Source: an uncultured Methylomirabilota bacterium (GTDB taxonomy: Bacteria > Methylomirabilota > Methylomirabilia > Methylomirabilales > 2-02-FULL-66-22). Taken from it: a stretch of 64,000 nt of DNA. The notes beneath the pieces were generated by a model. That model was not told where the DNA came from, did not search any database, and saw nothing but the letters and a program-made list of their open reading frames with translations. Positions 6,050 to 62,882 of this stretch are shown here, piece by piece; the stretch's first letter is position 1; each line of letters starts with the position of its first letter. Location: the NCBI GenBank assembly GCA_963842855.1, contig CAWJHW010000002.1:203187-267186 (forward strand). Reading direction: 5' to 3'. A program made the translations under genes and the position numbers.

Positions 6050-6107
6050 CTGGCAACCTGGCAACTTGGATTCCCTGATTGCCCGGTTGCCTGATTGCCA
6101 GATTGCC
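6050..6107. repeat. tandem-word hairpin element (GGCAAnnn / nnnTTGCC words)
   Basis: Left arm ctggcaacctggcaacttgg, right arm tgattgcccggttgcctgattgccagattgcc. Occupies the whole thiE-NYN spacer and abuts the thiE stop codon. Confidence 0.8.
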
Positions 6108-6784
6108 TAGCCGCCTCGCCGCGCAGCGGCGACGGCGGCGAGGAGCTCGGCGGCGGCTGCGCCAGGGTCCGATACGGCCATCACTGCGGAGATCACGCCG
6201 ACGCCATCGGCACCCGCCGCCATCACATCGGGAATCCGTACGGCGTTGATGCCCCCGATCGCCAGGATCGGAAGGGATGTGATCGCCCGCGCCTGCCGCA
6301 CGATCTCCGTCGTCAGCGGAGGGCCAAACGGAGCTTTCGACGGCGTCTCGAAGATGGGCCCGAGCACGACGAAATCCGCGCCGCCCTCCTCCGCTTCTCG
6401 AACCTCTGCCGGGGAATGGCACGAGACGCCGACGAGTTTGCCGGCTCCCAAGAGATCGCGGGCCTCCCTGGGGGGGAGGCTTCGCCGCGTGAGCTGGACC
6501 CCGTCGGCCGAGAGGGCCAAGGCCACGTCCACCCGATCGTTGACGAGCAACGCCGCGCCGGCCGCCCGAGTCATGGCGAGAACTTTTCCTGCGACATGGT
6601 ACAGGTCCCGGGTGGGAAGATCCTTCTCCCGGAGCTGGACCGCGCGCACTCCGGCCCGGAGGGCCTGCCCCACGACGGTGAGGAGATCGCGGTCACCTAC
6701 CTGGTGCCGATCGGTCACGAGGTACAGGCCCCACTTCCGTGGATTTCGAAATTCGAAATTCGAAATTCGAAATGGGGATTCCAC
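6107..6784 (-). CDS. thiE: thiamine-phosphate synthase
   Basis: LYLVTD, VQLREKD, VNDRVD, GVSCH, GPIF.T.SK and ILAIGGI motifs. The only in-frame start upstream of LYLVTD is GTG at 6784, so the N-terminus is encoded by a repeat; the start is uncertain. Confidence 0.85.
   Translation of the reverse strand: MESPFRISNFEFRNPRKWGLYLVTDRHQVGDRDLLTVVGQALRAGVRAVQLREKDLPTRDLYHVAGKVLAMTRAAGAALLVNDRVDVALALSADGVQLTRRSLPPREARDLLGAGKLVGVSCHSPAEVREAEEGGADFVVLGPIFETPSKAPFGPPLTTEIVRQARAITSLPILAIGGINAVRIPDVMAAGADGVGVISAVMAVSDPGAAAAELLAAVAAARRGG
6743..6773. repeat. self-complementary tandem heptamer array (ATTCGAA x4)
   Basis: atttcgaa attcgaa attcgaa attcgaa at, located at the thiG/thiE junction. Confidence 0.8.
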
Positions 6785-7897: not shown

Positions 7898-7925
7898 CCT
7901 CTCGGCTCTAGGCTCTCGGCTCTCC
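7898..7925. repeat. one-armed tandem-word element (CTCGGCT / GAGAGCC words)
   Basis: cctctcggctctaggctctcggctctcc, in the nudix-thiS spacer. Confidence 0.6.
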
Positions 7926-7926
7926 C

Positions 7927-8373
7927 TCAGACGACACCCATTCGCCGGCCAGCCGCCAACATCCGATTGATCACCTCGGCCGTTCCCCTGGTCATCTCGT
8001 ATCCGGGAAAGTCTTCCGGTGGCACCCAGCGAGCCTCGAGCACCTCGGACGACGGCGCGAGCTCCCCGCTCACCCATCGCGCCAGGTAATCGATGATGAC
8101 ATAATGATATTGGATCCGGCCGGATTCGTCGCGCACCATTCGTTCCACGACCTCGATCACATCCGTCAGATCGACCTCGACCCCGCACTCCTCCCGGATC
8201 TCGCGCTGGGTGGCCGGCCTGAGGCCCTCGCCCAGGTCTACGGCCCCGCCCGGAACCGACCAGAGGCCATAGCTCGGCTCTTTCCCCCGCCTGGCCAGCA
8301 GGACTCGCCCATCCTTGACCACGATGGCGCCCACCGCCACGATCGGCCGATCCGGATACTGTCGCGTCGTCAT
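7927..8373 (-). CDS. NUDIX hydrolase
   Basis: Nudix box GGAVDLGEGLRPATQREIREECGV. It is the first gene after the TPP riboswitch. Confidence 0.85.
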   Translation of the reverse strand: MTTRQYPDRPIVAVGAIVVKDGRVLLARRGKEPSYGLWSVPGGAVDLGEGLRPATQREIREECGVEVDLTDVIEVVERMVRDESGRIQYHYVIIDYLARWVSGELAPSSEVLEARWVPPEDFPGYEMTRGTAEVINRMLAAGRRMGVV

Positions 8374-8379
8374 GCCTTC

Positions 8380-8452
8380 AGAGCCTAGAGTCGAGAGCCG
8401 CGAGCCGAGACCGGAGGACCCCTCGGCTCTCGGTTCTAGGCTCTCGGCTCTC
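8380..8452. repeat. tandem-word hairpin element (GAGAGCC / GGCTCTC words)
   Basis: Left arm gagcctagagtcgagagccgcgagccgaga, loop ccggaggaccc, right arm ctcggctctcggttctaggctctcggctctc. Confidence 0.8.
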
Positions 8453-8491: not shown

Positions 8492-8507
8492 CATTCGCGT
8501 TGCGTGC

Positions 8508-8599
8508 CCGCTTTCCTACGCCGGCATTACCCGGGTCAGGTTCGGAGGGTTGCGCCGTCCAAACAGACGGCGACTCTCAGCGCGCGCTCCCCTAGCGGT
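8508..8599 (-). promoter_or_regulatory. TPP (THI-element) riboswitch aptamer
   Basis: The minus strand reads ACCGCUAGGGGAGCGCGCGCUGAGAGUCGCCGUCUGUUUGGACGGCGCAACCCUCCGAACCUGACCCGGGUAAUGCCGGCGUAGGAAAGCGG. It contains the hallmark GCUGAGA and ACCC..GAACCUGA.CCGG.UAAU.CCGGCGUAGG blocks plus a closing P1 helix. Confidence 0.85.
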
Positions 8600-8605
8600 A
8601 CTCGC

Positions 8606-8648: not shown

Positions 8649-8690
8649 AATTCTCATTCCGCATTCCACATTCCGAATTCCGCATTTCCG
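8649..8690. repeat. one-armed tandem heptamer array (ATTCCGC words x6)
   Basis: aattctc attccgc attccac attccga attccgc atttccg. Confidence 0.75.
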
Positions 8691-12738: not shown

Positions 12739-14742
12739 ATGGCTCGATTCAAGCTCGTTTGCGACTACCAGCCACGGGGCGACCAGCCCCGGGCCATCGC
12801 CCAGCTCACCGAGGGCGTGCTGCGCGGAGAGCGGCACCAGGTTCTCCTGGGGGTCACCGGGTCCGGCAAGACCTTCACCATGGCGAACGTCATCGCCAAC
12901 GTGGAGCGCCCGACCCTGATCATCGCCCACAACAAGACGCTGGCGGCGCAACTGTACAACGAGTTCAAGCAGTTCTTCCCCGAAAACGCCACCGAGTACT
13001 TCGTCTCCTACTACGACTACTACCAACCTGAGGCGTACATCCCCCAGACCGACACCTACATCGAGAAAGACTCCCTGATCAACGACCACATCGACAAGCT
13101 CCGCCACTCCGCCACCCGCAGCCTCCTGGAGCGGCGCGACAGCATCATCATCGCATCCGTCTCGTGCATTTACGGCCTGGGATCGCCCGAGGTGTATTAC
13201 GGCATGGTGCTTCTCCTGGAAGAGGGAGGGTCGTGCCCCCGGGATCACATGCTGCGCAAGTTGGTGGAGATCCAGTACCAGCGCAACGACCTCGACCTCC
13301 ACCGGGGGACCTTCCGGGCCCGCGGGGACGTGGTGGAGATCTTCCCGGCTTACGACGACACCGCCGTCCGGGTGGACCTGTTCGGCGACGAGGTGGAAAC
13401 GCTCTGGCAGATCGATCCGCTCACGGGCGAGAAGCTGACGCGTCTGCACCGGGTCCCCATCTATCCCGCCAACCACTACGTCACCCCCGAGGACATGCGG
13501 GAGCGCGCCTTCGCCGGCATCGAGGCGGAGCTGGAAGAGCGGTGTCGCGATCTGGAGGGTGAGCGCAAGCTCCTGGAGGCCCAGCGCCTGCGCCAGCGGA
13601 CGCGCTTCGACCTGGAGATGATGCACGAGATCGGGACGTGCAAGGGGATCGAGAACTACTCCCGGCACCTGTCCGGCCGGGCCCCCGGCGAGCCGCCCCC
13701 GACCCTGATGGACTACCTTCCCCGCGACGCCCTGGTCATCATCGACGAGTCCCACCAGACCGTCCCGCAGGTCCGCGGCATGTACCGCGGCGACCGGTCC
13801 CGCAAGGGGACCCTGGTGGAGTACGGCTTCCGCCTGCCTTCGGCCCTGGACAACCGGCCGCTCACGTTCGAAGAGTTCGAGCGGTGCGTGACCCAGGTCC
13901 TCTACGTCTCCGCCACCCCGGGCCCCTACGAGATGGGCAAGGTCGAGGGGCGCGTGGCGGAGCAGATCATCCGGCCGACCGGCCTGATCGATCCCGAGAT
14001 CGTGGTCCGGCCCATCGCCGGCCAGATCGACGACCTCATCCACGAGATCCGCGAGCGGGCGAAGCGCGACCACCGGATCCTGGTGACGACCCTGACGAAG
14101 CGCATGGCGGAGGAACTCACCGACTACCTGTCGGAGGTGGGAATCCGGGTGCGCTACCTCCACTCCGACATCGACACCCTGCAGCGGAACGAGATCATCC
14201 GGGACCTGCGCCTCAAGAAGTTCGACGTCCTGGTGGGGATCAACCTCCTGCGCGAGGGATTGGACATCCCCGAGGTGTCCCTGGTGGCCATCCTGGATGC
14301 CGACAAGGAGGGGTTCCTGCGGTCGGCCGGCTCCCTGATTCAGACGGCGGGCCGCGCCGCGCGGAACGTCGAAGGCCAGGTCATCCTGTACGCCGACGTC
14401 ATGACCAACTCCATGCGGGAGGCGCTCGCCGAGACCGCCCGCCGGCGGCAGCTCCAGCTGGCCTACAACCAGGAGCACGGCATCACCCCCGAGACGATCA
14501 AGAAGGACATCCAGGACGTCCTGGCGAGCATCTACGAGCGCGACTACTACACCGTCCCGGCCCTGAAGGACGAGGACATCCAGTTCATCCCGCGGGAGGA
14601 GATCCCGGCGCTCATGGCCCAGCTCGACAAGGAGATGCGCGCGGCGGCCAAGCGGCTGGAGTTCGAGAAGGCCGCGGAGCTCCGGGACAAGATCGCCGAA
14701 CTGGAGAAGCGCCGTCTGGGGATCGTGGGCAGCCAGCCATGA
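12739..14742 (+). CDS. uvrB: excinuclease ABC subunit B
   Basis: [41 protein letters not shown] and the UVR domain at the C-terminus. The upstream part of ORF 12454.. is not coding. Confidence 0.97.
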
Positions 14743-16136
14743 AGATACGCGATCCGTGGGCCGCGATACGTGGCAGGCTTCGCATGCTCCGCGACTCCTT
14801 CCGCTACACGCGACACGTTTCACGTTTCACGTGCGTGTTCCTGGCCGCGGCTCTGGGGGCGCTCCTGCCGCCGGTTGCGAGCGCGCAGGCGCCGACCGCC
14901 AGCCTCACCCCGGACAAGGGGCCGACCGTCGGGGGCACGAGGGTGCTCATCGAGATCGACGAGGGCTTGACGCTGGGTTCCGTCCGGGTCGAGTTCGGCG
15001 GTCGGCCCGTCCGCGTGGTCCGCGGCCTCGGCCTCTCGATCGTGGAGGTGATCACCCCGCCAGGAAATCCCGGACCGATTCCCGTCCGCGTGACGTACGG
15101 ACTCTTGATGAAGACTGCGGCCTCGGCCGTCTTCACGTACGTGTCCCCGGCCCCACGCCTGGCCCGACTGGACCCGTCCACGGTCCAGGCCGGATCGGCC
15201 GAGCTCCCCCTCTCGGTGGAGGGCGAAGATTTCACGCCGACTTGCAGCCTGCGCGTCGGAGACACCCTGGTGCCCGCCACGGTCCTGAGCCCGCAGCGCC
15301 TGCAGGTCCGCATCCCGGCCCCCCTCCTGGCCAGAGCCGGTAGCCTGGAGGTGCGGCTGACCGACTCCGCCATGGGGGGCGGCGCGTCCAACGTCATGCC
15401 CCTCGCCGTGGTCAATCCCCCACCCCAGTTGACGGCCGTGGAGGCGCCGCCGCTCAGGGTGGGCGGGCCTGCTGCTGGACCGGTCACGCTGACCGCGCGC
15501 GGCCGCGCATTCCGCCCGGAATCCGTCATCCAGCTCGCAGGCGCCGCCGCAGCAACGCAGTACCGCTCGGACCAGGAGTTGACGGCCGTCATCCCGCCGG
15601 AGCTGCTGGCCAAGCCGGGGGAATTGCCGGTCGTCGTGGTGACCCCCGGCCCCGGCGGGGGGACATCCCGGTCCCTGAGCCTTTCGGTCGTGGCCCCGTT
15701 TCCGGGCCGCTTTCTGGTCTTCACGTCCAACCGACAGGGCGGCCGGAACCACATCTACCTCTTGGACCGTCAGACCGGGCATCTGGACCCGTTGGAGGAA
15801 GCCAACAGCAGCCACGGCACCGACGACTCTCCCTCCATCACCGCCGACGGCCGCCTCATCGTGTTCCAGTCGGACCGCCGCGACGGTCAGTTCCACATCT
15901 TTCTCTTCGATCGGGAAACCCGCCGCCTGGATCCGCTGTCGGAGCTGAATCACCCCACTGCCTTCGACGGTTTCCCGCACATCAGTCCCGACGGCCGCTT
16001 CATTGTGTTCGAATCGGATCGCCTGAACGGGCGACCGAAGATCTTTCTGTTCGATCGGCAGACGCAGAGGCTCTCGGAGCTCCACCAGGCGAACGAGGCC
16101 ACGGCCGACGACGGCCTCGCAGCCATCAGCAACTGA
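14739..16136 (+). CDS. secreted protein with IPT/TIG-like repeats and a TolB-like (PD40) beta-propeller
   Basis: Signal peptide, then repeated P.I..L.P....AG...L.V.G..F modules, then four repeats of DG..IVF.S.R......I.L.D. The ATG overlaps the uvrB stop (ATGA); ATG 14784 is an alternative start. Confidence 0.7.
14811..14838. repeat. short tandem-word element (CACGTTT words)
   Basis: cacgttt cacgttt cacgtgc within the first 35 codons of the IPT/PD40 ORF. Confidence 0.5.
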
Positions 16137-16686: not shown

Positions 16687-19581
16687 ATGGAGAGGAAGCT
16701 GTCTCATATGAGAGAGTCCGCATCCCGAGCCGCCCTGCGCCTGGCTCTCCTGTTCGTCCTCATCTCGGGCCTGTGGGTTCTTTTTTCCGACCTGCTGGTC
16801 AGCTACCCCACCACCGATCCCGCCCTCCTCACGCGGATGCAAACCGTGAAGGGTGGAGCGTTCATCGCCGCCACGGGCGTCCTGCTGTTTCTCCTGTTTC
16901 GTCGGGAGCTCCGGAATCTCGAACGGCGCGATACGCAGATCCGTGACATCGAGCAACATCTGCGCCTGCAGAGCGCGGCGCTGGAATCGGCCGCGAATGC
17001 CGTCGTCATCACCGACCGGGAGGGCCGCATCACCTGGGTCAACCCGGCCTTCACCCGCCTGACCGGCTACACCGCCGCAGAGGCCATCGGCAAAAATCCC
17101 CGCCTCCTCAAGTCCGACAGGCACGATGCGGCCTTCTACCGGACGCTCTGGGAAACCATCCTCTGCGGCCGGGTGTGGCGCGGCGAGCTTGTCAATCGCC
17201 GGAAGGACGGATCGCTATACCTCGAGGAGCAAACCATCACGCCGGTGCTGGACGCGGGCGGGGCCATCAGCCACTTCATTGGCATCAAGCAGGACATCAG
17301 CGAGCGCAAGCAGGCCGAGGGGGCGCTGCGGGAAAGCGAGGAGAAATTCCGGAGCCTCGTCGAGAGCACCAGCGACTGGGTCTGGGAGATCGACGAGAGG
17401 AATCGGTACACCTACGTCAGCCCAAGGATCCGCGACATCCTGGGCTATGCACCCGAAGAAGTGCTGGGCAAGACCCCCTTCGACCTCATGCCCGCAGAGG
17501 AGGCCAGGCGGGCGGCCGAAGCCTTCGCCCCCATCACGGGCCAGATGCGGCCCTTCTTGCTCTTCGATAATGTGAACCTCCACAAGGATGGCCACCGGGT
17601 CGTTCTGGAGACCAGCGGGACGCCGATCTTCGACTCCCAGGGGGTGCTCCGTGGGTATCGCGGGATCGATCGGGATATCACCGAGCGCAAGCGGGCGGAG
17701 GAGGAGCTGCGGGCCCGCACCCAGCAGCTCGAAGCGGTCCGGGCCGTCAGCGCAGAGATCACCCACGAGTTGGATCTCAGGAATCTCCTCCAGCTCGTGG
17801 ACCGGCGCGCGGCGGAGTTGGTGGGGGCCGAGCGGGGGGCCATCCTCCTCTGGGACGAAGCACACCAGCGCCTGGTCCCCCAGGCCTGGCACGGGTACGG
17901 CCCCTGGGTGGGCGACGTCCGTCCCCGGCTGGGTGAAGGGGTGGCCGGCCTCGTCGGGGAGCGGCGGGAAGGGCTGATCGTCAACGATTACCGCAATTCC
18001 CCGCACGCCCACCCGCTCTTCCTGGAGCGTTCCCTGGATGCCGCCGTCCTGTGCGAGCCGCTGCTCTACCGGGATCGCCTCCTGGGGGTGATCCTCCTCG
18101 CCGGCTCGCCGAGCCATCGCCAGTTCTCCAGCGAGGACCAACAGTTGCTCCGCCTCTTCGCCGTCCAGGCAGCCATCGCCATCGAGAACGCTCGGCTGCA
18201 TTCTGCGGCCCTACGCCGCGGGGAGGAACTCGAGGCGCTCCTGCGGGCGACGCGCGCGGTCATGTCCGACCTGGATCTCCAGAGCATCCTGGAGCGGATC
18301 GTGGCCGAGGCCTCCCAGATGACCGGGACCCCGCACGTGACAGTCATGTTGGTGGACAGGGCGGCGAAGGTCCTCCGGGTGGCGGCGCTGATCGGCGACC
18401 CCGTGCCAACGGACTTTGCCATTCCCCTGGGGCAGGACCTGTCGGGCCTCGTGGCGGAGACCGGGCAGCCGTTTTTCAGCGCCGACTCGCCCAACGACCC
18501 CCGCAACCTACTCGCGGCGCGGGATAGGGAGCGCGGCTTTGTCACGTACCTCGGCCTCCCGATCAGGGTCCGGGACGAGGTGCTCGGGGTGCTCACCTTC
18601 GATACGACGACGCCCCGCCGCTACACCCCCGACGAGGTGGCCTACCTGGAGTCGTTCGCCGCCCAGGCCGCCATCGCCATGGAAAAGGCCCGGCTCTACC
18701 AGGAGATCCGCCGGCACGCCGCCACGCTGGAGCAGCGCGTCCGGGATCGCACCCGCGAATTCGAGGAGGCGCGCGCTCAAGCCGAGGGGGCCTCCCGCCA
18801 CAAGTCAGACCTCCTGGCCAACATGTCCCACGAATTGCGGACCCCGCTGAACTCGATCATCGGATTCTCGCAACTCCTCCGGGACCAATACGCGGGCCCC
18901 CTGAGCGAGAAGCAGGTCCGGTACCTCGGGCACATCCACTCCGCGGGCATGCATCTTTTCGAGCTCATCAGCGACATCCTGGACCTCGCCAAGGTGGAGG
19001 CGGGCAAACTCATCCCTCGGTGCGAGGCCTTGCCGGTTGCCGCCACCCTGGAGGACATCTGCGCCATCGCCGATGCGCTCGCCCGCGAAAAGAGCCAGAC
19101 GCTGGAATTCCAGGTTGCGCCCGCCCTTCCGCCCCTCCAAGCTGACCCCGTTCGCTTCAAGCAGATCTGCCTGAACCTGTTGAGCAACGCGGTCAAGTTC
19201 ACCCCGAACGGCGGGCGGATCACGCTCACGGCCCGCCGCGTGGCGCGGCAGTCAGGCGACCTGGCAACCAGGCAATCTGGAGCCTCCCCTGATCGCCCGA
19301 TTGCCCAGGTGCCTGAGTGCCAGGCGGGAGCGGAGTGGCTCGAGATCCGGGTGCAAGATACGGGAATCGGAATCAAGGCCGAGGACCTGCCTCGTCTCTT
19401 CCAGGAGTTCACCCAACTCGAGCAGGCGGCGACCAGAGAGCACAAAGGGACTGGCCTCGGTCTCGCCCTGACCAAGCGGCTGGTCGAGCTTCACGGGGGG
19501 CGGATCTGGGCCGAGTCCGAAGGGGAGAGCCGGGGGAGCGCTTTTATTGTTCTCCTGCCGTTCGAGGGGCCGGCCGCCTGA
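16687..19581 (+). CDS. multi-sensor histidine kinase (TM, PAS x2, GAF x2, HisKA, HATPase_c)
   Basis: H-box SHELRTPLNSI, N-box LLSNAVKFT, G1 DTGIGI, G2 GTGLGLAL; repeated PAS (DITERK) and GAF segments. Confidence 0.9.
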   Translation: MERKLSHMRESASRAALRLALLFVLISGLWVLFSDLLVSYPTTDPALLTRMQTVKGGAFIAATGVLLFLLFRRELRNLERRDTQIRDIEQHLRLQSAALESAANAVVITDREGRITWVNPAFTRLTGYTAAEAIGKNPRLLKSDRHDAAFYRTLWETILCGRVWRGELVNRRKDGSLYLEEQTITPVLDAGGAISHFIGIKQDISERKQAEGALRESEEKFRSLVESTSDWVWEIDERNRYTYVSPRIRDILGYAPEEVLGKTPFDLMPAEEARRAAEAFAPITGQMRPFLLFDNVNLHKDGHRVVLETSGTPIFDSQGVLRGYRGIDRDITERKRAEEELRARTQQLEAVRAVSAEITHELDLRNLLQLVDRRAAELVGAERGAILLWDEAHQRLVPQAWHGYGPWVGDVRPRLGEGVAGLVGERREGLIVNDYRNSPHAHPLFLERSLDAAVLCEPLLYRDRLLGVILLAGSPSHRQFSSEDQQLLRLFAVQAAIAIENARLHSAALRRGEELEALLRATRAVMSDLDLQSILERIVAEASQMTGTPHVTVMLVDRAAKVLRVAALIGDPVPTDFAIPLGQDLSGLVAETGQPFFSADSPNDPRNLLAARDRERGFVTYLGLPIRVRDEVLGVLTFDTTTPRRYTPDEVAYLESFAAQAAIAMEKARLYQEIRRHAATLEQRVRDRTREFEEARAQAEGASRHKSDLLANMSHELRTPLNSIIGFSQLLRDQYAGPLSEKQVRYLGHIHSAGMHLFELISDILDLAKVEAGKLIPRCEALPVAATLEDICAIADALAREKSQTLEFQVAPALPPLQADPVRFKQICLNLLSNAVKFTPNGGRITLTARRVARQSGDLATRQSGASPDRPIAQVPECQAGAEWLEIRVQDTGIGIKAEDLPRLFQEFTQLEQAATREHKGTGLGLALTKRLVELHGGRIWAESEGESRGSAFIVLLPFEGPAA
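19247..19324. repeat. GGCAA-type tandem-word hairpin inserted in frame inside the kinase HATPase_c domain
   Basis: Left arm ggcagtcaggcgacctggcaaccaggcaatctgg, loop agcctcccc, right arm tgatcgcccgattgcccaggtgcctgagtgccagg. Confidence 0.75.
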
Positions 19582-19612
19582 TTGCGGAATGCGAAGTGCG
19601 GAATGCGAAATG
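19582..19612. repeat. one-armed tandem-word element (GCGGAATG words)
   Basis: ttgcggaatgcgaagtgcggaatgcgaaatg, starting 1 nt after the kinase stop codon. Confidence 0.7.
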
Positions 19613-19648: not shown

Positions 19649-19674
19649 CATCACCAATCGAAAATCGTCAATCC
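19649..19674. repeat. one-armed tandem-word element (CAATCn words)
   Basis: catcaccaatcgaaaatcgtcaatcc. Overlaps the rluD stop codon at 19668-19670. Confidence 0.6.
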
Positions 19675-21187: not shown

Positions 21188-21211
21188 GACCCGGGTCGCC
21201 GATCACCCCAC

Positions 21212-21281
21212 ATTGGTCGTCGGGAATTGGTCATTGGCCATTGGTCATTAGCCATTGCCCTTCGGTCATTGGTCATTGCGT
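21212..21281. repeat. one-armed array of ten tandem heptamers (ATTGGTC words)
   Basis: attggtc gtcggga attggtc attggcc attggtc attagcc attgccc ttcggtc attggtc attgcgt. Spans the ileS stop codon to near the lspA start. Confidence 0.8.
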
Positions 21282-25517: not shown

Positions 25518-25537
25518 TCAATCCTCCTCGGCGTCGT

Positions 25538-25618
25538 GGCAATTTGGCAACCCGGCAATTCGGCAATCTGGCAGTTCCCAGTTGCCAAGCTGCCCGATTG
25601 CCTGATTGCCGAATCGCC
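25538..25618. repeat. tandem-word hairpin element, archetype (5 x GGCAAnnn then 5 x nnnTTGCC)
   Basis: ggcaattt ggcaaccc ggcaattc ggcaatct ggcagttc / ccagttgcc aagctgcc cgattgcc tgattgcc gaatcgcc. Confidence 0.9.
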
Positions 25619-25694
25619 CGAACCTAGCACAGCCGCCCCTTTCCCTCAAGCGCCCGGATTCCCCCGCAGCACGTCAAACGGGCGGGGAATCGTC

Positions 25695-59553: not shown

Positions 59554-59635
59554 GGGCAATCCGGCAATCGGGCAACTCGGCAAACAGGAAATCCGGGTTC
59601 CTGAGACCTCCAAATCGCCCGATCGCCAGATTGCC
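59554..59635. repeat. tandem-word hairpin element (GGCAAnnn / nnnTCGCC-TTGCC words)
   Basis: Left arm gggcaatccggcaatcgggcaactcggcaaacagg, right arm aaatcgcccgatcgccagattgcc. Abuts the npdG stop codon with the same cagattgccTAG junction seen at thiE. Confidence 0.8.
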
Positions 59636-60300
59636 TAGTTGTCTTTCACCGTCTCAGAGATGCCGGTGATCCGGATTCCCGCGCCGCTGGCCCTGTAGCG
59701 CCGGTTGATCCCCAGCAGGAGAATCGTGAGGCTTTCGACCGCCCTGGCATTCCGCGCCGGCCCGGCGTCCACGCCGCGGAAGCCCAGCAACTCGGCCAGT
59801 CTGATCGCCTCCTGGCGGGCGCCGGCGTCGTCGCCGCAGACCAGGACGTCGCACGCACCCGCTTCTCCATGCTCCAGGTGGACGTGGGAGATGTTCTGGA
59901 AGGCCGCCACCACCCGCGTCTCGAGCCCGAGGAGCGTTTGCGCCTCCTCCGTGGCCGATCCCCCCAGCGGGACCCGCAGGTGCCGCGGCTTCTCGGGATC
60001 CACGGGGACCGTGACGTCCACCAGGACCTTCCCCCGAACCGCCTCCTGGATGTCCTTGAGGGTCGCTTCATGCGCGGCGTAGGGGACCGTGAGGACGACG
60101 ATCTCCCCGGACGCCGCGGCCTCGCGGTTCAGCATCCCGGTGGCGGCCGCACGCCCCGCCGCCCTGCTGATGGCCTCGGCCGCATTCACGGCGCGCTCCA
60201 TCACGCGCGAGCCGATGATCACCTCCTGGCCCGCGCGCGCCCAGCCCAGGGCCAGGCCGTACCCCTCCCTGCCGGTTCCCCCGATCACGGCGATCCGCAT
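59635..60300 (-). CDS. npdG: NADPH-dependent F420 reductase
   Basis: MRIAVIGGTG..G..LA......G..V.IGSR Rossmann N-terminus and family length; sits within the F420 operon. Confidence 0.8.
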   Translation of the reverse strand: MRIAVIGGTGREGYGLALGWARAGQEVIIGSRVMERAVNAAEAISRAAGRAAATGMLNREAAASGEIVVLTVPYAAHEATLKDIQEAVRGKVLVDVTVPVDPEKPRHLRVPLGGSATEEAQTLLGLETRVVAAFQNISHVHLEHGEAGACDVLVCGDDAGARQEAIRLAELLGFRGVDAGPARNARAVESLTILLLGINRRYRASGAGIRITGISETVKDN

Positions 60301-61658: not shown

Positions 61659-62882
61659 ACATGCCAAGGACGGTCTCGGCTCGTGGCTCTCGGCTCTCCC
61701 GTCGGGAACCAAGCCATCGCCGTCCGCGGACGCGCGGATGCGCTCGGCCAGCTCGGGAGGCAGGTACTCGCGGCCATACAGGATGTACTCAGGATACACT
61801 GGCAAGCGCTGGCGCAGAAGAAATCCTCGGTCTTCCGTGACCGCCCGCAGGGCCGCGAGGTGCGGCCAGGGGGCCTCCGGATTGATGAAGTCCCGCGTGA
61901 GGGGAGAAACCCCGCCCCAATCGTTGATCCCGGCGTCGAGGAGCCGTCCGAACTCCTGCGTCAGGTTGGGCGGCGCTTGGAGGTTCATGAACGGGCCCAG
62001 GATCAGTCGCGCCACGGCCGTGGTCCGGAGCATGTCTTCCGGCGTGGGCTCCGGCTGGTCGCGCATGGGGATGGTCGGCTTCACCCGGAAGTTCTGGACG
62101 ATGACCTCTTGGATGTGGCCGTACCGCTCGTGCAGGCCCCGAATGGCGAGGAGAGAGTCCACGCGCTCTTCGCCCGTCTCGCCGATGCCGACGAGGATGC
62201 CTGTGGTGAACGGGATCTTCAGCCGGCCGGCCACTTCCATGACGCGAAGACGCACCCGAGGATGCTTCGTCACGGCTCCGTGGTGCGGCCCGCCCGCCAG
62301 GAGCAGGCGGGGGCTCGCCGATTCCAGCATGAGGCCCATGCTCGCGTTCACGGCCCTCAGGGCGCGGAGGTCCGGCTCGCTCATCACCCCCGGATTCGCG
62401 TGGGGAAAGAGGGGCGAGCGGTCGAGCACCAGCCCGCAGGCCGCCCGCAGGTATTCCAGGGTCCGCCGGTAGCCCAACCCCCGCAGGATCGCCCGCGCCC
62501 CGGGAAACACGGCCTCGGGCGCATCCCCCAGGCTGAAGAGCGCCTCGGTGCAGCCGAGCCGGGCCCCTTCCCCCACCACGGCCAGCACCTGCTCCGGCGT
62601 CATGATCCAGCCATCTGGGTCCTCCGGATCCCGCCGGAATGTGCAATACCCGCAACGGTCCCGGCAGAGGTTCGTCAGGGGCAGGAACACCTTGCGGGAG
62701 TACGTGATGGTCTTTCCCTTCCCTCGGTTTCGCAGGGCCGCCGCCGCCGCGAGCAGCGGGTCGAGTGGCGCCGAGGGTTCGAGGAAACGGATCGCCGCCT
62801 CGCGGGAGAGCCCCCGCCCGGCCGCAGCATCATCCAGCGCACCCGTGAGCGACCGATCCCGCACGGAGCCCACAACCATCAT
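61647..62882 (-). CDS. cofG: FO synthase subunit 1 (radical SAM)
   Basis: VF.PLTNLCRDRCGYCTF motif. ATG-ATG start at 62882. The longer ORF to 63521 overlaps the PPIase gene and is not used. Confidence 0.9.
   Translation of the reverse strand: MMVVGSVRDRSLTGALDDAAAGRGLSREAAIRFLEPSAPLDPLLAAAAALRNRGKGKTITYSRKVFLPLTNLCRDRCGYCTFRRDPEDPDGWIMTPEQVLAVVGEGARLGCTEALFSLGDAPEAVFPGARAILRGLGYRRTLEYLRAACGLVLDRSPLFPHANPGVMSEPDLRALRAVNASMGLMLESASPRLLLAGGPHHGAVTKHPRVRLRVMEVAGRLKIPFTTGILVGIGETGEERVDSLLAIRGLHERYGHIQEVIVQNFRVKPTIPMRDQPEPTPEDMLRTTAVARLILGPFMNLQAPPNLTQEFGRLLDAGINDWGGVSPLTRDFINPEAPWPHLAALRAVTEDRGFLLRQRLPVYPEYILYGREYLPPELAERIRASADGDGLVPDGRAESHEPRPSLACENR
61671..61706. repeat. one-armed tandem-word element (CTCGGCT words) inside the cofG 3' end
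   Basis: cggtctcggctcgtggctctcggctctcccgtcggg, which encodes ...PDGRAESHEPRP. Confidence 0.6.

What the first reader, a model, noticed from the sequence alone, without database searches (positions are those of the whole stretch)
19243..19330. A word-hairpin element inserted in frame inside the ATP-binding domain of a histidine kinase
The kinase reads ...LLSNAVKFTPNGGRITLTARRV[ARQSGDLATRQSGASPDRPIAQVPECQAGA]EWLEIRVQDTGIGI.... The bracketed residues (about 29) are encoded by a GGCAA-type element: left arm ggcagtcaggcgacctggcaaccaggcaatctgg, loop agcctcccc, right arm tgatcgcccgattgcccaggtgcctgagtgccagg. In typical HATPase_c domains only a short turn separates the strand after the N-box from the strand preceding the DxGxG box. 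This therefore looks like a repeat insertion that preserved the reading frame and added a surface loop. In-frame palindromic-element insertions are established for Rickettsia palindromic elements. Here the inserted unit belongs to the otherwise intergenic family described above.
Basis: partly seen in the sequence, partly recalled or inferred. Interest (0 to 1): 0.65.

Follow-up and report, generated by a model that had tools for sequence, protein, structure and literature searches.

The report
Swappable repeat hairpin inside a kinase gene
A 75-base hairpin built from repeated 8-letter DNA words sits in frame in a floppy surface loop of a bacterial sensor kinase, and near-identical relatives carry completely different word hairpins at exactly the same spot, so this loop is a long-occupied, fast-turnover docking site for such repeats rather than a one-off insertion.

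Summary
Window 19247-19321 holds four GGCAAYCN words, a 7-nt loop and four inverse words. It is in frame in the HATPase_c domain of a PAS-PAS-GAF-GAF-HisKA histidine kinase (16687-19581). It folds as one hairpin (-45.7 kcal/mol, z -4.3, 0 of 200 shuffles). Three other copies of the same word family in the window lie in intergenic spacers. The segment adds about 29 residues between two adjacent beta-strands, and AlphaFold models it as disordered.

This is not a unique recent insertion into a short turn. Syntenic orthologues that are 93-96% identical outside the segment carry unrelated word hairpins at the same place (GGGGAGCA 8-mers; GCGGAAG/ATTCCGC 7-mers). A 70%-identical orthologue has TGGTCAAN words. 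Dozens of related kinases carry still other words. Distant paralogues share the window's word and its loop sequence.

My reading is a permissive loop that acts as a hypervariable cassette site for short-tandem-repeat hairpins. I think it is tolerated rather than functional. It changes by word slippage and by wholesale replacement; the replacement mechanism is inferred, not shown. The closest precedents are repeats in cyanobacterial RNase P RNA, inverted heptamer arrays in Xanthomonas, and in-frame palindromic elements in Rickettsia. I rate it a new variant of a known kind.

The parts
16687..19581 (+). Histidine kinase gene (PAS-PAS-GAF-GAF-HisKA-HATPase_c), 964 aa. Database copies start 7 codons later (957 aa).
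   Evidence: ORF; Pfam domains; 100% match P0001; conserved synteny CSD-HK-RluD-LspA-IleRS.
19186..19203 (+). N-box codons (NAVKFT).
   Evidence: Motif position; conserved in all relatives.
19237..19338 (+). Hypervariable cassette, 34 codons (RVARQSGDLATRQSGASPDRPIAQVPECQAGAEW). It lies between the conserved ...ITLTAR and LEIRVQD. It is non-homologous among orthologues that are 93-96% identical outside this segment.
   Evidence: Alignment. Identity inside is 23-42% against 93-96% outside, and this is the only such island in the 2.9-kb CDS. Disordered loop in the AlphaFold model.
19247..19280 (+). Left arm: four 8-nt words, GGCAGTCA GGCGACCT GGCAACCA GGCAATCT, plus GG.
19281..19287 (+). Hairpin loop. 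The centre reads GGAGCCTCCCC, which is shared with paralogues L167 and L168.
19288..19321 (+). Right arm: four inverse words (GATCGCC, GATTGCC, AGGTGCC, GAGTGCC) at 8-nt period.
19339..19374 (+). Strand and G1 box codons (LEIRVQDTGIGI).
6050..6108 (.). Intergenic GGCAAYC word hairpin. It lies between the ThiE stop (which it overlaps) and the start of a YacP-like NYN gene.
   Evidence: z -2.7.
25537..25621 (.). Intergenic GGCAAYC word hairpin between divergent genes.
   Evidence: z -5.7.
59555..59643 (.). Intergenic GGCAAYC word hairpin in a spacer between two minus-strand genes. Its right arm overlaps the upstream stop codon.
   Evidence: z -5.1.

Best explanation
The element is an in-frame member of a class of short-tandem-repeat hairpins: tandem 7- or 8-nt words, a short loop, then the inverse words. 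These hairpins litter the spacers of this Methylomirabilota (NC10) genome.

This copy sits in a structurally permissive beta-hairpin turn of the kinase ATP-binding domain, where it encodes a disordered surface loop with no conserved sequence.

The site is old and hypervariable. Across a large clade of PAS/GAF kinases the same turn holds word hairpins of many different word families.

Shown:
- The content changes by gain and loss of words in frame-preserving steps.
- The content also changes by wholesale replacement of one hairpin by an unrelated one, on a time scale shorter than about 5% nucleotide divergence.
- Purifying selection keeps the frame open.

Inferred:
- The hairpin is tolerated rather than used.
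- Replacement happens either by recombination between kinase alleles or paralogues through the highly conserved N-box and G1-box flanks, or by break repair at the hairpin that copies from other arrays.
For: Family membership and hairpin quality.

Permissive loop:
- Typical kinases have 33-36 aa from the N-box to the G1 box; here there are 63.
- The AlphaFold model has strands at 161-170 and 200-208 with pLDDT below 50 between them.
- The fold matches GacS, HK853 and RetS.

Replacement:
- The syntenic orthologues L001, L084, L085 and L086 are 93-96% identical outside 19237-19338 and 23-42% identical inside. Three unrelated word types are present.
- L002 has TGGTCAAN words.
- Among protein pairs with at least 90% identical catalytic flanks, only 49% share a related insert.

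Many other word hairpins sit at the same turn in metagenome relatives. Fourteen distinct loci (15 listed rows; L002 and L003 are identical) score z <= -2, and the strongest reaches -7.4.

Slippage: L087 equals L084 minus 24 nt, which is three 8-mers.

Cassette sharing between paralogues: the window, L167 and L168 align in register and share the loop GGAGCCTCCCC.

Open-frame selection: word 3 of the right arm in the TGGTCAA type reads CGA, not TGA, in L002. All TGGTCAA-type peptides have Arg at that position.

Generality: a second in-frame site, the N-terminus of the neighbouring TIG/PD40 gene, also carries different word arrays in the same near-identical strains.

Loss is tolerated: L089 has a nearly empty site of 40 aa.
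Against: - No donor for any replacement was identified, so neither proposed replacement mechanism is demonstrated.
- About half of the long inserts are still strongly hairpin-forming, and the window copy is as stable as the intergenic copies. A purely neutral, decaying element would be expected to look worse.
- The neighbouring intergenic hairpins keep their word across the same strains and vary only in copy number. The kinase site therefore turns over faster than its surroundings, which a general mutational process alone does not explain.
- With only four DNA sequences of the GGCAAYC type, the covariation test had little power.
Confidence: 0.68

Rival explanations
1. The hairpin is a selected nucleic-acid structure inside the coding region. 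As RNA it would pause ribosomes between the N-box and the G1 box, or be cut by RNase III to set kinase mRNA levels. As DNA it would form a cruciform or a protein-binding site. Any word will do as long as a long stem forms, which would explain why the content changes but a hairpin persists.
For: - A hairpin is present at the same turn in many diverged kinases with unrelated words, and z reaches -7.
- The window copy is as stable as the intergenic copies.
- The stems often extend into the conserved Ala-Arg and Gly-Glu codons.
- Word hairpins elsewhere lie in operon spacers, as expected for RNA-level elements.
Against: - There is no excess of compensatory change in the GGCAAYC type: 74.6% of cells paired, shuffles do as well, 91 of 500 for the covariation score.
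- Many long inserts have z near 0, or have one-armed or non-complementary arrays, such as L101, L130, L096 and L104.
- Some relatives have an almost empty site: L089 and P0044.
- Arm complementarity is only 74%.
Confidence: 0.15
2. The variable loop is selected at the protein level. A hypervariable surface tag on the catalytic domain would insulate the many paralogous kinases from one another or tune partner contacts. The repeat hairpin would be merely the generator of variation.
For: - The clade holds many paralogues with very similar catalytic cores (60-86% identity) but very different loops.
- Turnover is faster here than in the adjacent intergenic hairpins.
Against: - The loop is predicted to be disordered.
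- The peptides are simply what the words encode in three frames and show no conserved motif beyond that.
- The loop can be nearly absent (L089).
- The kinase is cytoplasmic, so no obvious diversifying pressure exists. No interaction data are available.
Confidence: 0.07
3. The word array is a contingency locus. Slippage by one 7- or 8-nt unit would shift the frame and switch off the G1, F and G2 boxes, giving phase-variable kinase activity.
For: - The unit lengths are not multiples of three.
- Copy-number changes do occur (L087 against L084; the intergenic arrays).
- Some relatives have near-perfect arrays (L090, L091, L094).
Against: - In the window copy no two adjacent words are identical, so slippage should be rare.
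- TRF did not even call it as a tandem repeat.
- The observed length variant differs by 24 nt and stays in frame.
- All full-length cluster members are in frame.
Confidence: 0.04
4. This is the first reader's reading: a recent, lineage-specific insertion of a mobile palindromic element into a kinase that previously had a short turn.
For: - The element belongs to a dispersed family in the same genome.
- Ordinary kinases have a short turn at this position.
Against: - All close orthologues and most clade members already have a 20-40 aa segment here.
- Orthologues at 93-96% identity outside the segment carry other hairpins, not an empty site.
- The same cassette, including its loop, is found in distant paralogues.
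Confidence: 0.04

Closest known systems
STRR (short tandemly repeated repetitive) heptamers in helix P12 of cyanobacterial RNase P RNA (Vioque 1997, Nucleic Acids Res 25:3471). The title is cited in PMC2858038 ref B108. The details are from my own memory, because the paper was not held.
   Same: Tandem short words form both arms of a hairpin inside a functional gene, at a structurally permissive spot. As I recall the paper, closely related strains carry unrelated repeats at the same site, and the repeats are dispensable for activity. That is the same pattern.
   Different: The host there is an RNA gene, so the stem is part of the product. Here the host is a protein-coding gene, so the frame must stay open and the product is a disordered peptide loop. 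The phylum differs (Methylomirabilota, not heterocystous cyanobacteria). Here 8-nt words occur as well as 7-nt words, and the same cassettes are shared among paralogues.
Paired, convergent GGGAATC heptamer arrays of Xanthomonas and GGGGA(T/C)T arrays of Nostoc (Rehm et al. 2015, PMC4692102).
   Same: Tandem heptamer words occur as inverted pairs able to form stem-loops. They lie mostly between co-oriented ORFs. Length varies between related genomes while the type is preserved. This matches the intergenic hairpins of this window.
   Different: That paper describes one dominant G-rich word per genome and proposes G-quadruplex formation. It reports under-representation in coding regions. Here there are many word families in 64 kb, and the copy at issue is in frame.
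Rickettsia palindromic elements (RPE).
   Same: A palindromic repeat is inserted in frame, adds a surface segment and is tolerated by the host protein.
   Different: RPEs are 100-150 bp elements with a family-wide conserved sequence, scattered over many unrelated genes. They are stable once inserted. Here the unit is a word array with no conserved element sequence, the same site is reused, and the content is replaced.
REP / REPIN elements (PMC3116915, PMC3733652; listed).
   Same: Short intergenic hairpin-forming repeats in operon spacers.
   Different: REPs have one conserved sequence per family, recognised by a RAYT transposase. Word hairpins have no shared sequence beyond the local word. 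No RAYT gene was looked for or seen.
23S rRNA intervening sequences that carry a PF05635 gene (established knowledge, from memory).
   Same: In the relatives L001, L084 and L002, a PF05635 gene lies in the loop of a GATTNNN/NNNAATC word hairpin just downstream of the kinase. This is a long stem with a gene in its loop, as in rRNA intervening sequences.
   Different: It is not in rRNA. The kinase hairpin has only a 7-nt loop. The link to the kinase element is by architecture only.

Membership tests
GGCAAYCN word-hairpin family of this window | Left arm of tandem 8-nt words matching GGCAAYC. | tested here: met
   Four words at 19247, 19255, 19263 and 19271 with 1, 1, 0 and 0 mismatches.
GGCAAYCN word-hairpin family of this window | Right arm of the inverse words at the same period, after a short loop, giving one long stem. 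| tested here: met
   Arms of 34 nt with 7 nt between them, 74% complementary. Single hairpin, z -4.3.
GGCAAYCN word-hairpin family of this window | Location in a spacer between genes. | tested here: not met
   The three other copies are in spacers. This one is in frame in the kinase.
Heptamer/octamer tandem-repeat inverted pairs (STRR-like; Xanthomonas type) | Unit of 7 (or 6-9) nt repeated head to tail, with a convergent second array nearby. | tested here: met
   8-nt unit here. 7-nt units in sister cassettes and in neighbouring spacers. Description of the class in PMC4692102.
Heptamer/octamer tandem-repeat inverted pairs (STRR-like; Xanthomonas type) | Copy number varies between close relatives while the site is kept. 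| tested here: met
   Intergenic arrays. Kinase cassette: L087 against L084, 24 nt.
Rickettsia palindromic elements | A conserved element sequence of about 100-150 bp shared by all copies. | tested here: not met
   Copies of the window family share only the word. Their loops and lengths differ. Sister cassettes are unrelated in sequence. No RPE sequence was compared directly.
Rickettsia palindromic elements | In-frame insertion in many unrelated protein genes. | tested here: inconclusive
   Within the 64-kb window I found one hairpin in frame, plus word arrays at the N-termini of the TIG/PD40 gene and possibly ThiE. The idealised-peptide search found only tiny domain-less ORFs. The whole genome was not available.
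Histidine kinase HATPase_c domain | N-box, G1 (DxGxG) and G2 (GxGLG) motifs, and the Bergerat fold. | tested here: met
   Pfam PF02518 at 1.2e-26. Motifs. Foldseek top hits GacS, HK853 and RetS.
Phase-variable simple-sequence contingency locus | Near-perfect repeats whose unit changes produce frameshift on/off variants in the population. | tested here: not met
   The words are degenerate and TRF did not call them. All full-length variants seen are in frame.
Structured RNA under selection | Compensatory base changes that preserve pairs. | tested here: inconclusive
   Four sequences of one type: 4 pairs with double changes, no better than shuffles. Rfam gives no match at this place.

The most novel reading that the evidence does not exclude
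Replacement of one word hairpin by an unrelated one at a fixed site is an active, hairpin-directed process rather than ordinary recombination. For example, breaks or nicks at an extruded hairpin could be repaired by templated copying from other arrays. Alternatively, an intervening-sequence-like element could invade hairpin tips, possibly linked to the PF05635 four-helix-bundle genes that sit in word-hairpin loops next door. Such a process would make chosen loops of kinases, signal-peptide N-termini and RNA helices hypervariable across several phyla.
Probability: 0.12. Interest if true: 0.85.

Novelty: new variant of a known kind. Interest (0 to 1): 0.66.

Why it matters
Short heptamer and octamer repeat arrays have been known in bacteria since about 1990, yet how they arise, spread and get replaced is still unexplained. 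Rehm et al. 2015 state that no detailed literature on heptameric repeats existed.

This case gives that question a tractable system.
- It offers a single, exactly defined site in a conserved protein domain.
- Near-identical strains carry three unrelated hairpins at that site.
- Many paralogues act as natural replicates.
- The reading frame records which changes are allowed.

It also matters for practice.
- A kinase ATP-binding domain tolerates 20-40 residues of arbitrary, repeat-encoded sequence at this turn. That is useful for annotation, for domain boundaries and for engineering insertion points.
- Alignment-based trees and recombination tests on such kinases should mask this segment.

Tried and rejected
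It returned only ordinary kinases without the insert. I used these as a length baseline only, and no organism names were obtained for insert-bearing relatives.
2. Whole-window repeat finder with seed 8 missed the kinase element. TRF also did not call it, because its words are degenerate. My own array scan uses an ORF-span measure that is unreliable in this 66% GC sequence, so I checked the coding status of individual arrays by hand and with Pfam.
It found only 34-72 aa domain-less ORFs, which are miscalled intergenic arrays. It did not even recover the known kinase copies. It therefore cannot exclude degenerate in-frame copies in other proteins.
4. The covariation test was inconclusive with four sequences.
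5. Vioque 1997 could not be read. Two papers that cite it gave only the title.
6. Literature searches for Methylomirabilis repeats and small dispersed repeats found nothing specific.
7. Gene conversion from a paralogue: I looked for tracts. L084 shows extra divergence in the 40 nt to the left of the cassette. However, the same PPEG variant occurs with other cassette types, so this is not diagnostic.
8. Assembly artefact is rejected, because the same segment appears in many independent assemblies.
9. Chance palindrome is rejected.
Full report
**1. What is at the coordinates**

The window is 66% G+C. Members of the kinase's 90%-identity cluster are labelled Candidatus Methylomirabilota. More distant homologues are labelled NC10 or Methylomirabilis.

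ORF 16687-19581 (+) encodes a 964-aa histidine kinase with two PAS domains, two GAF domains, HisKA and HATPase_c.

Inside HATPase_c the DNA at 19247-19321 reads as follows:
- four words, GGCAGTCA GGCGACCT GGCAACCA GGCAATCT, followed by GG;
- seven further bases;
- four inverse words, GATCGCC, GATTGCC, AGGTGCC and GAGTGCC, at the same 8-nt period.

The arms are 34 nt each and 74% complementary. The core is 75 nt, which is 25 codons.

The 83-nt stretch 19243-19325 folds as a single hairpin of -45.7 kcal/mol. Its z-score is -4.31, and none of 200 dinucleotide shuffles folds as well.

The two-word pattern is nine-fold enriched in the window (28 hits against 3.2 expected). The hits fall in four clusters: this one, 6050-6108, 25537-25621 and 59555-59643. 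The other three lie in short spacers between genes and fold comparably, with z from -2.7 to -5.7.

**2. The wider repeat class**

Tandem Repeats Finder shows that the window is full of 7- and 8-nt word arrays with many different words: TTCGAAA, CTCTCGG, CATTCCG, GATTGTT, TGCGGAA, TTCACGT, CATTGGT, AATGCGG, CAATGAC and GGCAATC. Many are paired with an inverse array to give a hairpin. They sit mostly in spacers between co-oriented genes, often touching a stop or start codon.

This matches the little-studied class of heptamer repeat pairs described for Xanthomonas and Nostoc (PMC4692102) and the cyanobacterial STRR repeats.

**3. Where the element lies in the protein**

- In more than 100 ordinary kinases fetched as controls, the N-box Asn to the end of the G1 box spans 33-36 residues, with a mode of 34. 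Here the span is 63.
- The Pfam domain match covers 141 residues on 109 profile positions.
- PDB kinases align in two blocks that skip the segment.
- The AlphaFold model of the catalytic core has strands at query residues 161-170 (GRITLTARRV) and 200-208 (WLEIRVQDT). Residues 172-197 between them have pLDDT below 50. The only other low-confidence stretch is the ATP lid.
- Foldseek returns GacS, ZraS, HK853 and RetS as best matches.

**4. The decisive comparison**

Every close homologue has a segment of 20-40 residues at the same place, but with a different peptide.

I fetched DNA for syntenic orthologues that share the gene order CSD, kinase, RluD, LspA, IleRS. Results:

| Locus | Identity to the window outside 19237-19338 | Identity inside | Words in the segment |
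|---|---|---|---|
| L001 | 93.4% | 23% | GCGGAAG / ATTCCGC-like 7-mers |
| L084 | 95.2% | 42% | GGGGAGCA / TGCTCCCC 8-mers |
| L085 | 96.3% | 37% | GGGGAGCA / TGCTCCCC 8-mers |
| L086 | 95.1% | 41% | GGGGAGCA / TGCTCCCC 8-mers |
| L002 | 70.5% | 26% | TGGTCAAN / NTTGACCA 8-mers |

This segment is the only such island in the 2.9-kb gene.

Within single 90%-identity protein clusters, three unrelated loop types coexist. Over 83 relatives, only 49% of pairs with at least 90% identical catalytic flanks share a related insert.

**5. The same turn carries word hairpins across a large kinase clade**

Metagenome relatives found with clade-specific motifs include many in-frame hairpins with yet other words:
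- AGAAGGC (L090, z -7.4)
- GGGTCTA (L094, z -7.0)
- GAGTGCT (L113, z -5.5)
- TGGTCAAT (L091, z -5.7)
- GTTCAGA (L105)
- GTTTCGA (L098)
- GTCCGAG (L100)

Fourteen distinct loci have z <= -2 (15 listed rows; L002 and L003 are identical). Others look decayed or partial. L101 has only a left array. L130 has two non-complementary arrays. L096 and L104 have z near 0. L089 has an almost empty site of 40 aa.

**6. How the segment changes**

Shown:
- *Word-number change that keeps the frame.* L087 equals L084 minus 24 nt, which is three 8-mers.
- *Wholesale replacement.* See section 4.
- *Selection for an open frame.* In TGGTCAA-type cassettes the third word of the right arm would read TGA in the frame used. 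In L002 it reads CGA, and every TGGTCAA-type peptide has Arg at that position.

Also shown is that some cassettes are shared by distant paralogues. The window, L167 (a 1224-aa kinase) and L168 (a 913-aa kinase in a kinase-regulator cluster) align in register over all eight words and share the loop GGAGCCTCCCC. Their flanks are only 71-76% identical, and 44-57% at third codon positions. The cassette phylogeny therefore disagrees with the gene phylogeny in both directions.

Inferred: replacement uses the very conserved N-box and G1-box DNA as recombination flanks (allelic or paralogous conversion), and/or repair of breaks at the hairpin. I found no donor.

Two observations bear on this.
- The neighbouring intergenic hairpins (RluD-LspA and LspA-IleRS) keep their word in the same strains and vary only in copy number. 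The kinase site therefore turns over faster, which fits conversion among paralogues.
- A second in-frame site shows the same behaviour in a gene that I did not check for paralogues. This is the N-terminal 40 codons of the adjacent TIG/PD40 gene. The window has CACGTTT words where L001, L084 and L085 have TTCTGCC/TTCCGCC words. Identity there is 37-43%, against 91-98% for the rest of the gene. That fits a general, site-reusing replacement process.

**7. Is the hairpin used?**

The structure test on the four GGCAAYC-type sequences shows the register is right: 74.6% of cells are paired, against 21-45% when the partner is slid. There is no excess of compensatory change over shuffles. The power of this test is low.

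Against a function:
- decayed and one-armed examples exist;
- near-empty sites exist;
- the peptide is disordered and unconserved.

Still unexplained:
- the good stability of the window copy;
- the persistence of hairpins at this turn.

I put 0.68 on 'tolerated repeat hairpin in a permissive, hypervariable loop'. I put 0.15 on a selected RNA or DNA structure.

**8. Comparison with what is known**

- *STRR in RNase P RNA.* The closest precedent in behaviour is the STRR repeats that lengthen helix P12 of RNase P RNA in heterocystous cyanobacteria. As I recall the paper, closely related strains carry unrelated repeats at that helix. The title is cited, and the paper was not readable.
- *Xanthomonas arrays.* The closest in anatomy are the inverted GGGAATC array pairs of Xanthomonas.
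- *Rickettsia palindromic elements.* These share the outcome, an in-frame palindrome in a surface loop. They fail the membership test, because this family has no conserved element sequence and its content is replaced at a reused site.

I found no report of such hairpins in frame in a kinase domain, or in Methylomirabilota. I rate the finding a new variant of a known kind.

**9. Limits**

- Only 64 kb of the genome was available.
- Relatives with inserts come from metagenomes without taxonomy.
- The replacement mechanism, and any function, remain inference.

Noticed in passing
window 14744-14866 (N-terminus of the TIG/PD40 gene 14739-16136, + strand); L001 1054-1180, L084 553-680, L085 554-680: This is a second in-frame hypervariable island. 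The first ~40 codons hold CACGTTT words in the window but TTCTGCC/TTCCGCC words in three strains. Those strains are 91-98% identical over the rest of the gene, and identity in the island is 37-43%.
   Followed up: partly
L001 5863-6391, L084 5371-5900, L002 5858-6210; window 19583-19612 and 19650-19670: A PF05635 (23S rRNA intervening-sequence protein, four-helix bundle) gene lies in the loop of a GATTNNN / NNNAATC word hairpin between the kinase and RluD in some strains. The window, L085 and L086 lack the gene. They have a TGCGGAA array plus a right-arm remnant instead.
   Followed up: partly
window 7899-7924, 8380-8452, 61674-61698: The NUDIX gene 7927-8373 (-) is bracketed by arrays of the same word (CTCTCGG / GAGAGCC). 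One array lies just past its stop, and a full hairpin lies just before its start. The same word recurs at 61674.
   Followed up: no
window 8496-8603 (-): A TPP riboswitch (Rfam RF00059, 67.7 bits) is flanked on both sides by word arrays (8422-8452 and 8655-8686).
   Followed up: no
window 6745-6773: Four TTCGAAA words lie between the only in-frame start codon (GTG at 6784) and the conserved LYLVTDR motif of ThiE (6110-6784, -). The array may therefore be translated as an N-terminal extension (FRISNFEFRN).
   Followed up: partly
window 21211-21278; L085 6981-7064; L086 4873-4921: The ATTGGTC array in the LspA-IleRS spacer differs by 7 nt and by 42 nt between strains that are about 95% identical. 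This is plain copy-number variation with the word kept.
   Followed up: yes
proteins P0152, P0163, P0166: Perfect GGCAATC-type octamer arrays, translated as (RQSGNQAI)n in tiny miscalled ORFs, occur in records named Aeromonas salmonicida, Burkholderia glumae and Treponema sp. This word is therefore not confined to one phylum.
   Followed up: no
L130 and L101 (kinase loop): L130 has GAATTCA words on the left and GCAATCC words on the right, and the two arrays are not complementary. L101 has only a left CAACGTG/CAACGTC array. These may be intermediates of replacement or of decay.
   Followed up: no
L089 (kinase loop): This relative keeps LEIRVQDTGIGI but has only 40 aa from the N-box to the G1 box (AVDHGETGGPW). 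The site is nearly empty, so the long loop is dispensable.
   Followed up: partly
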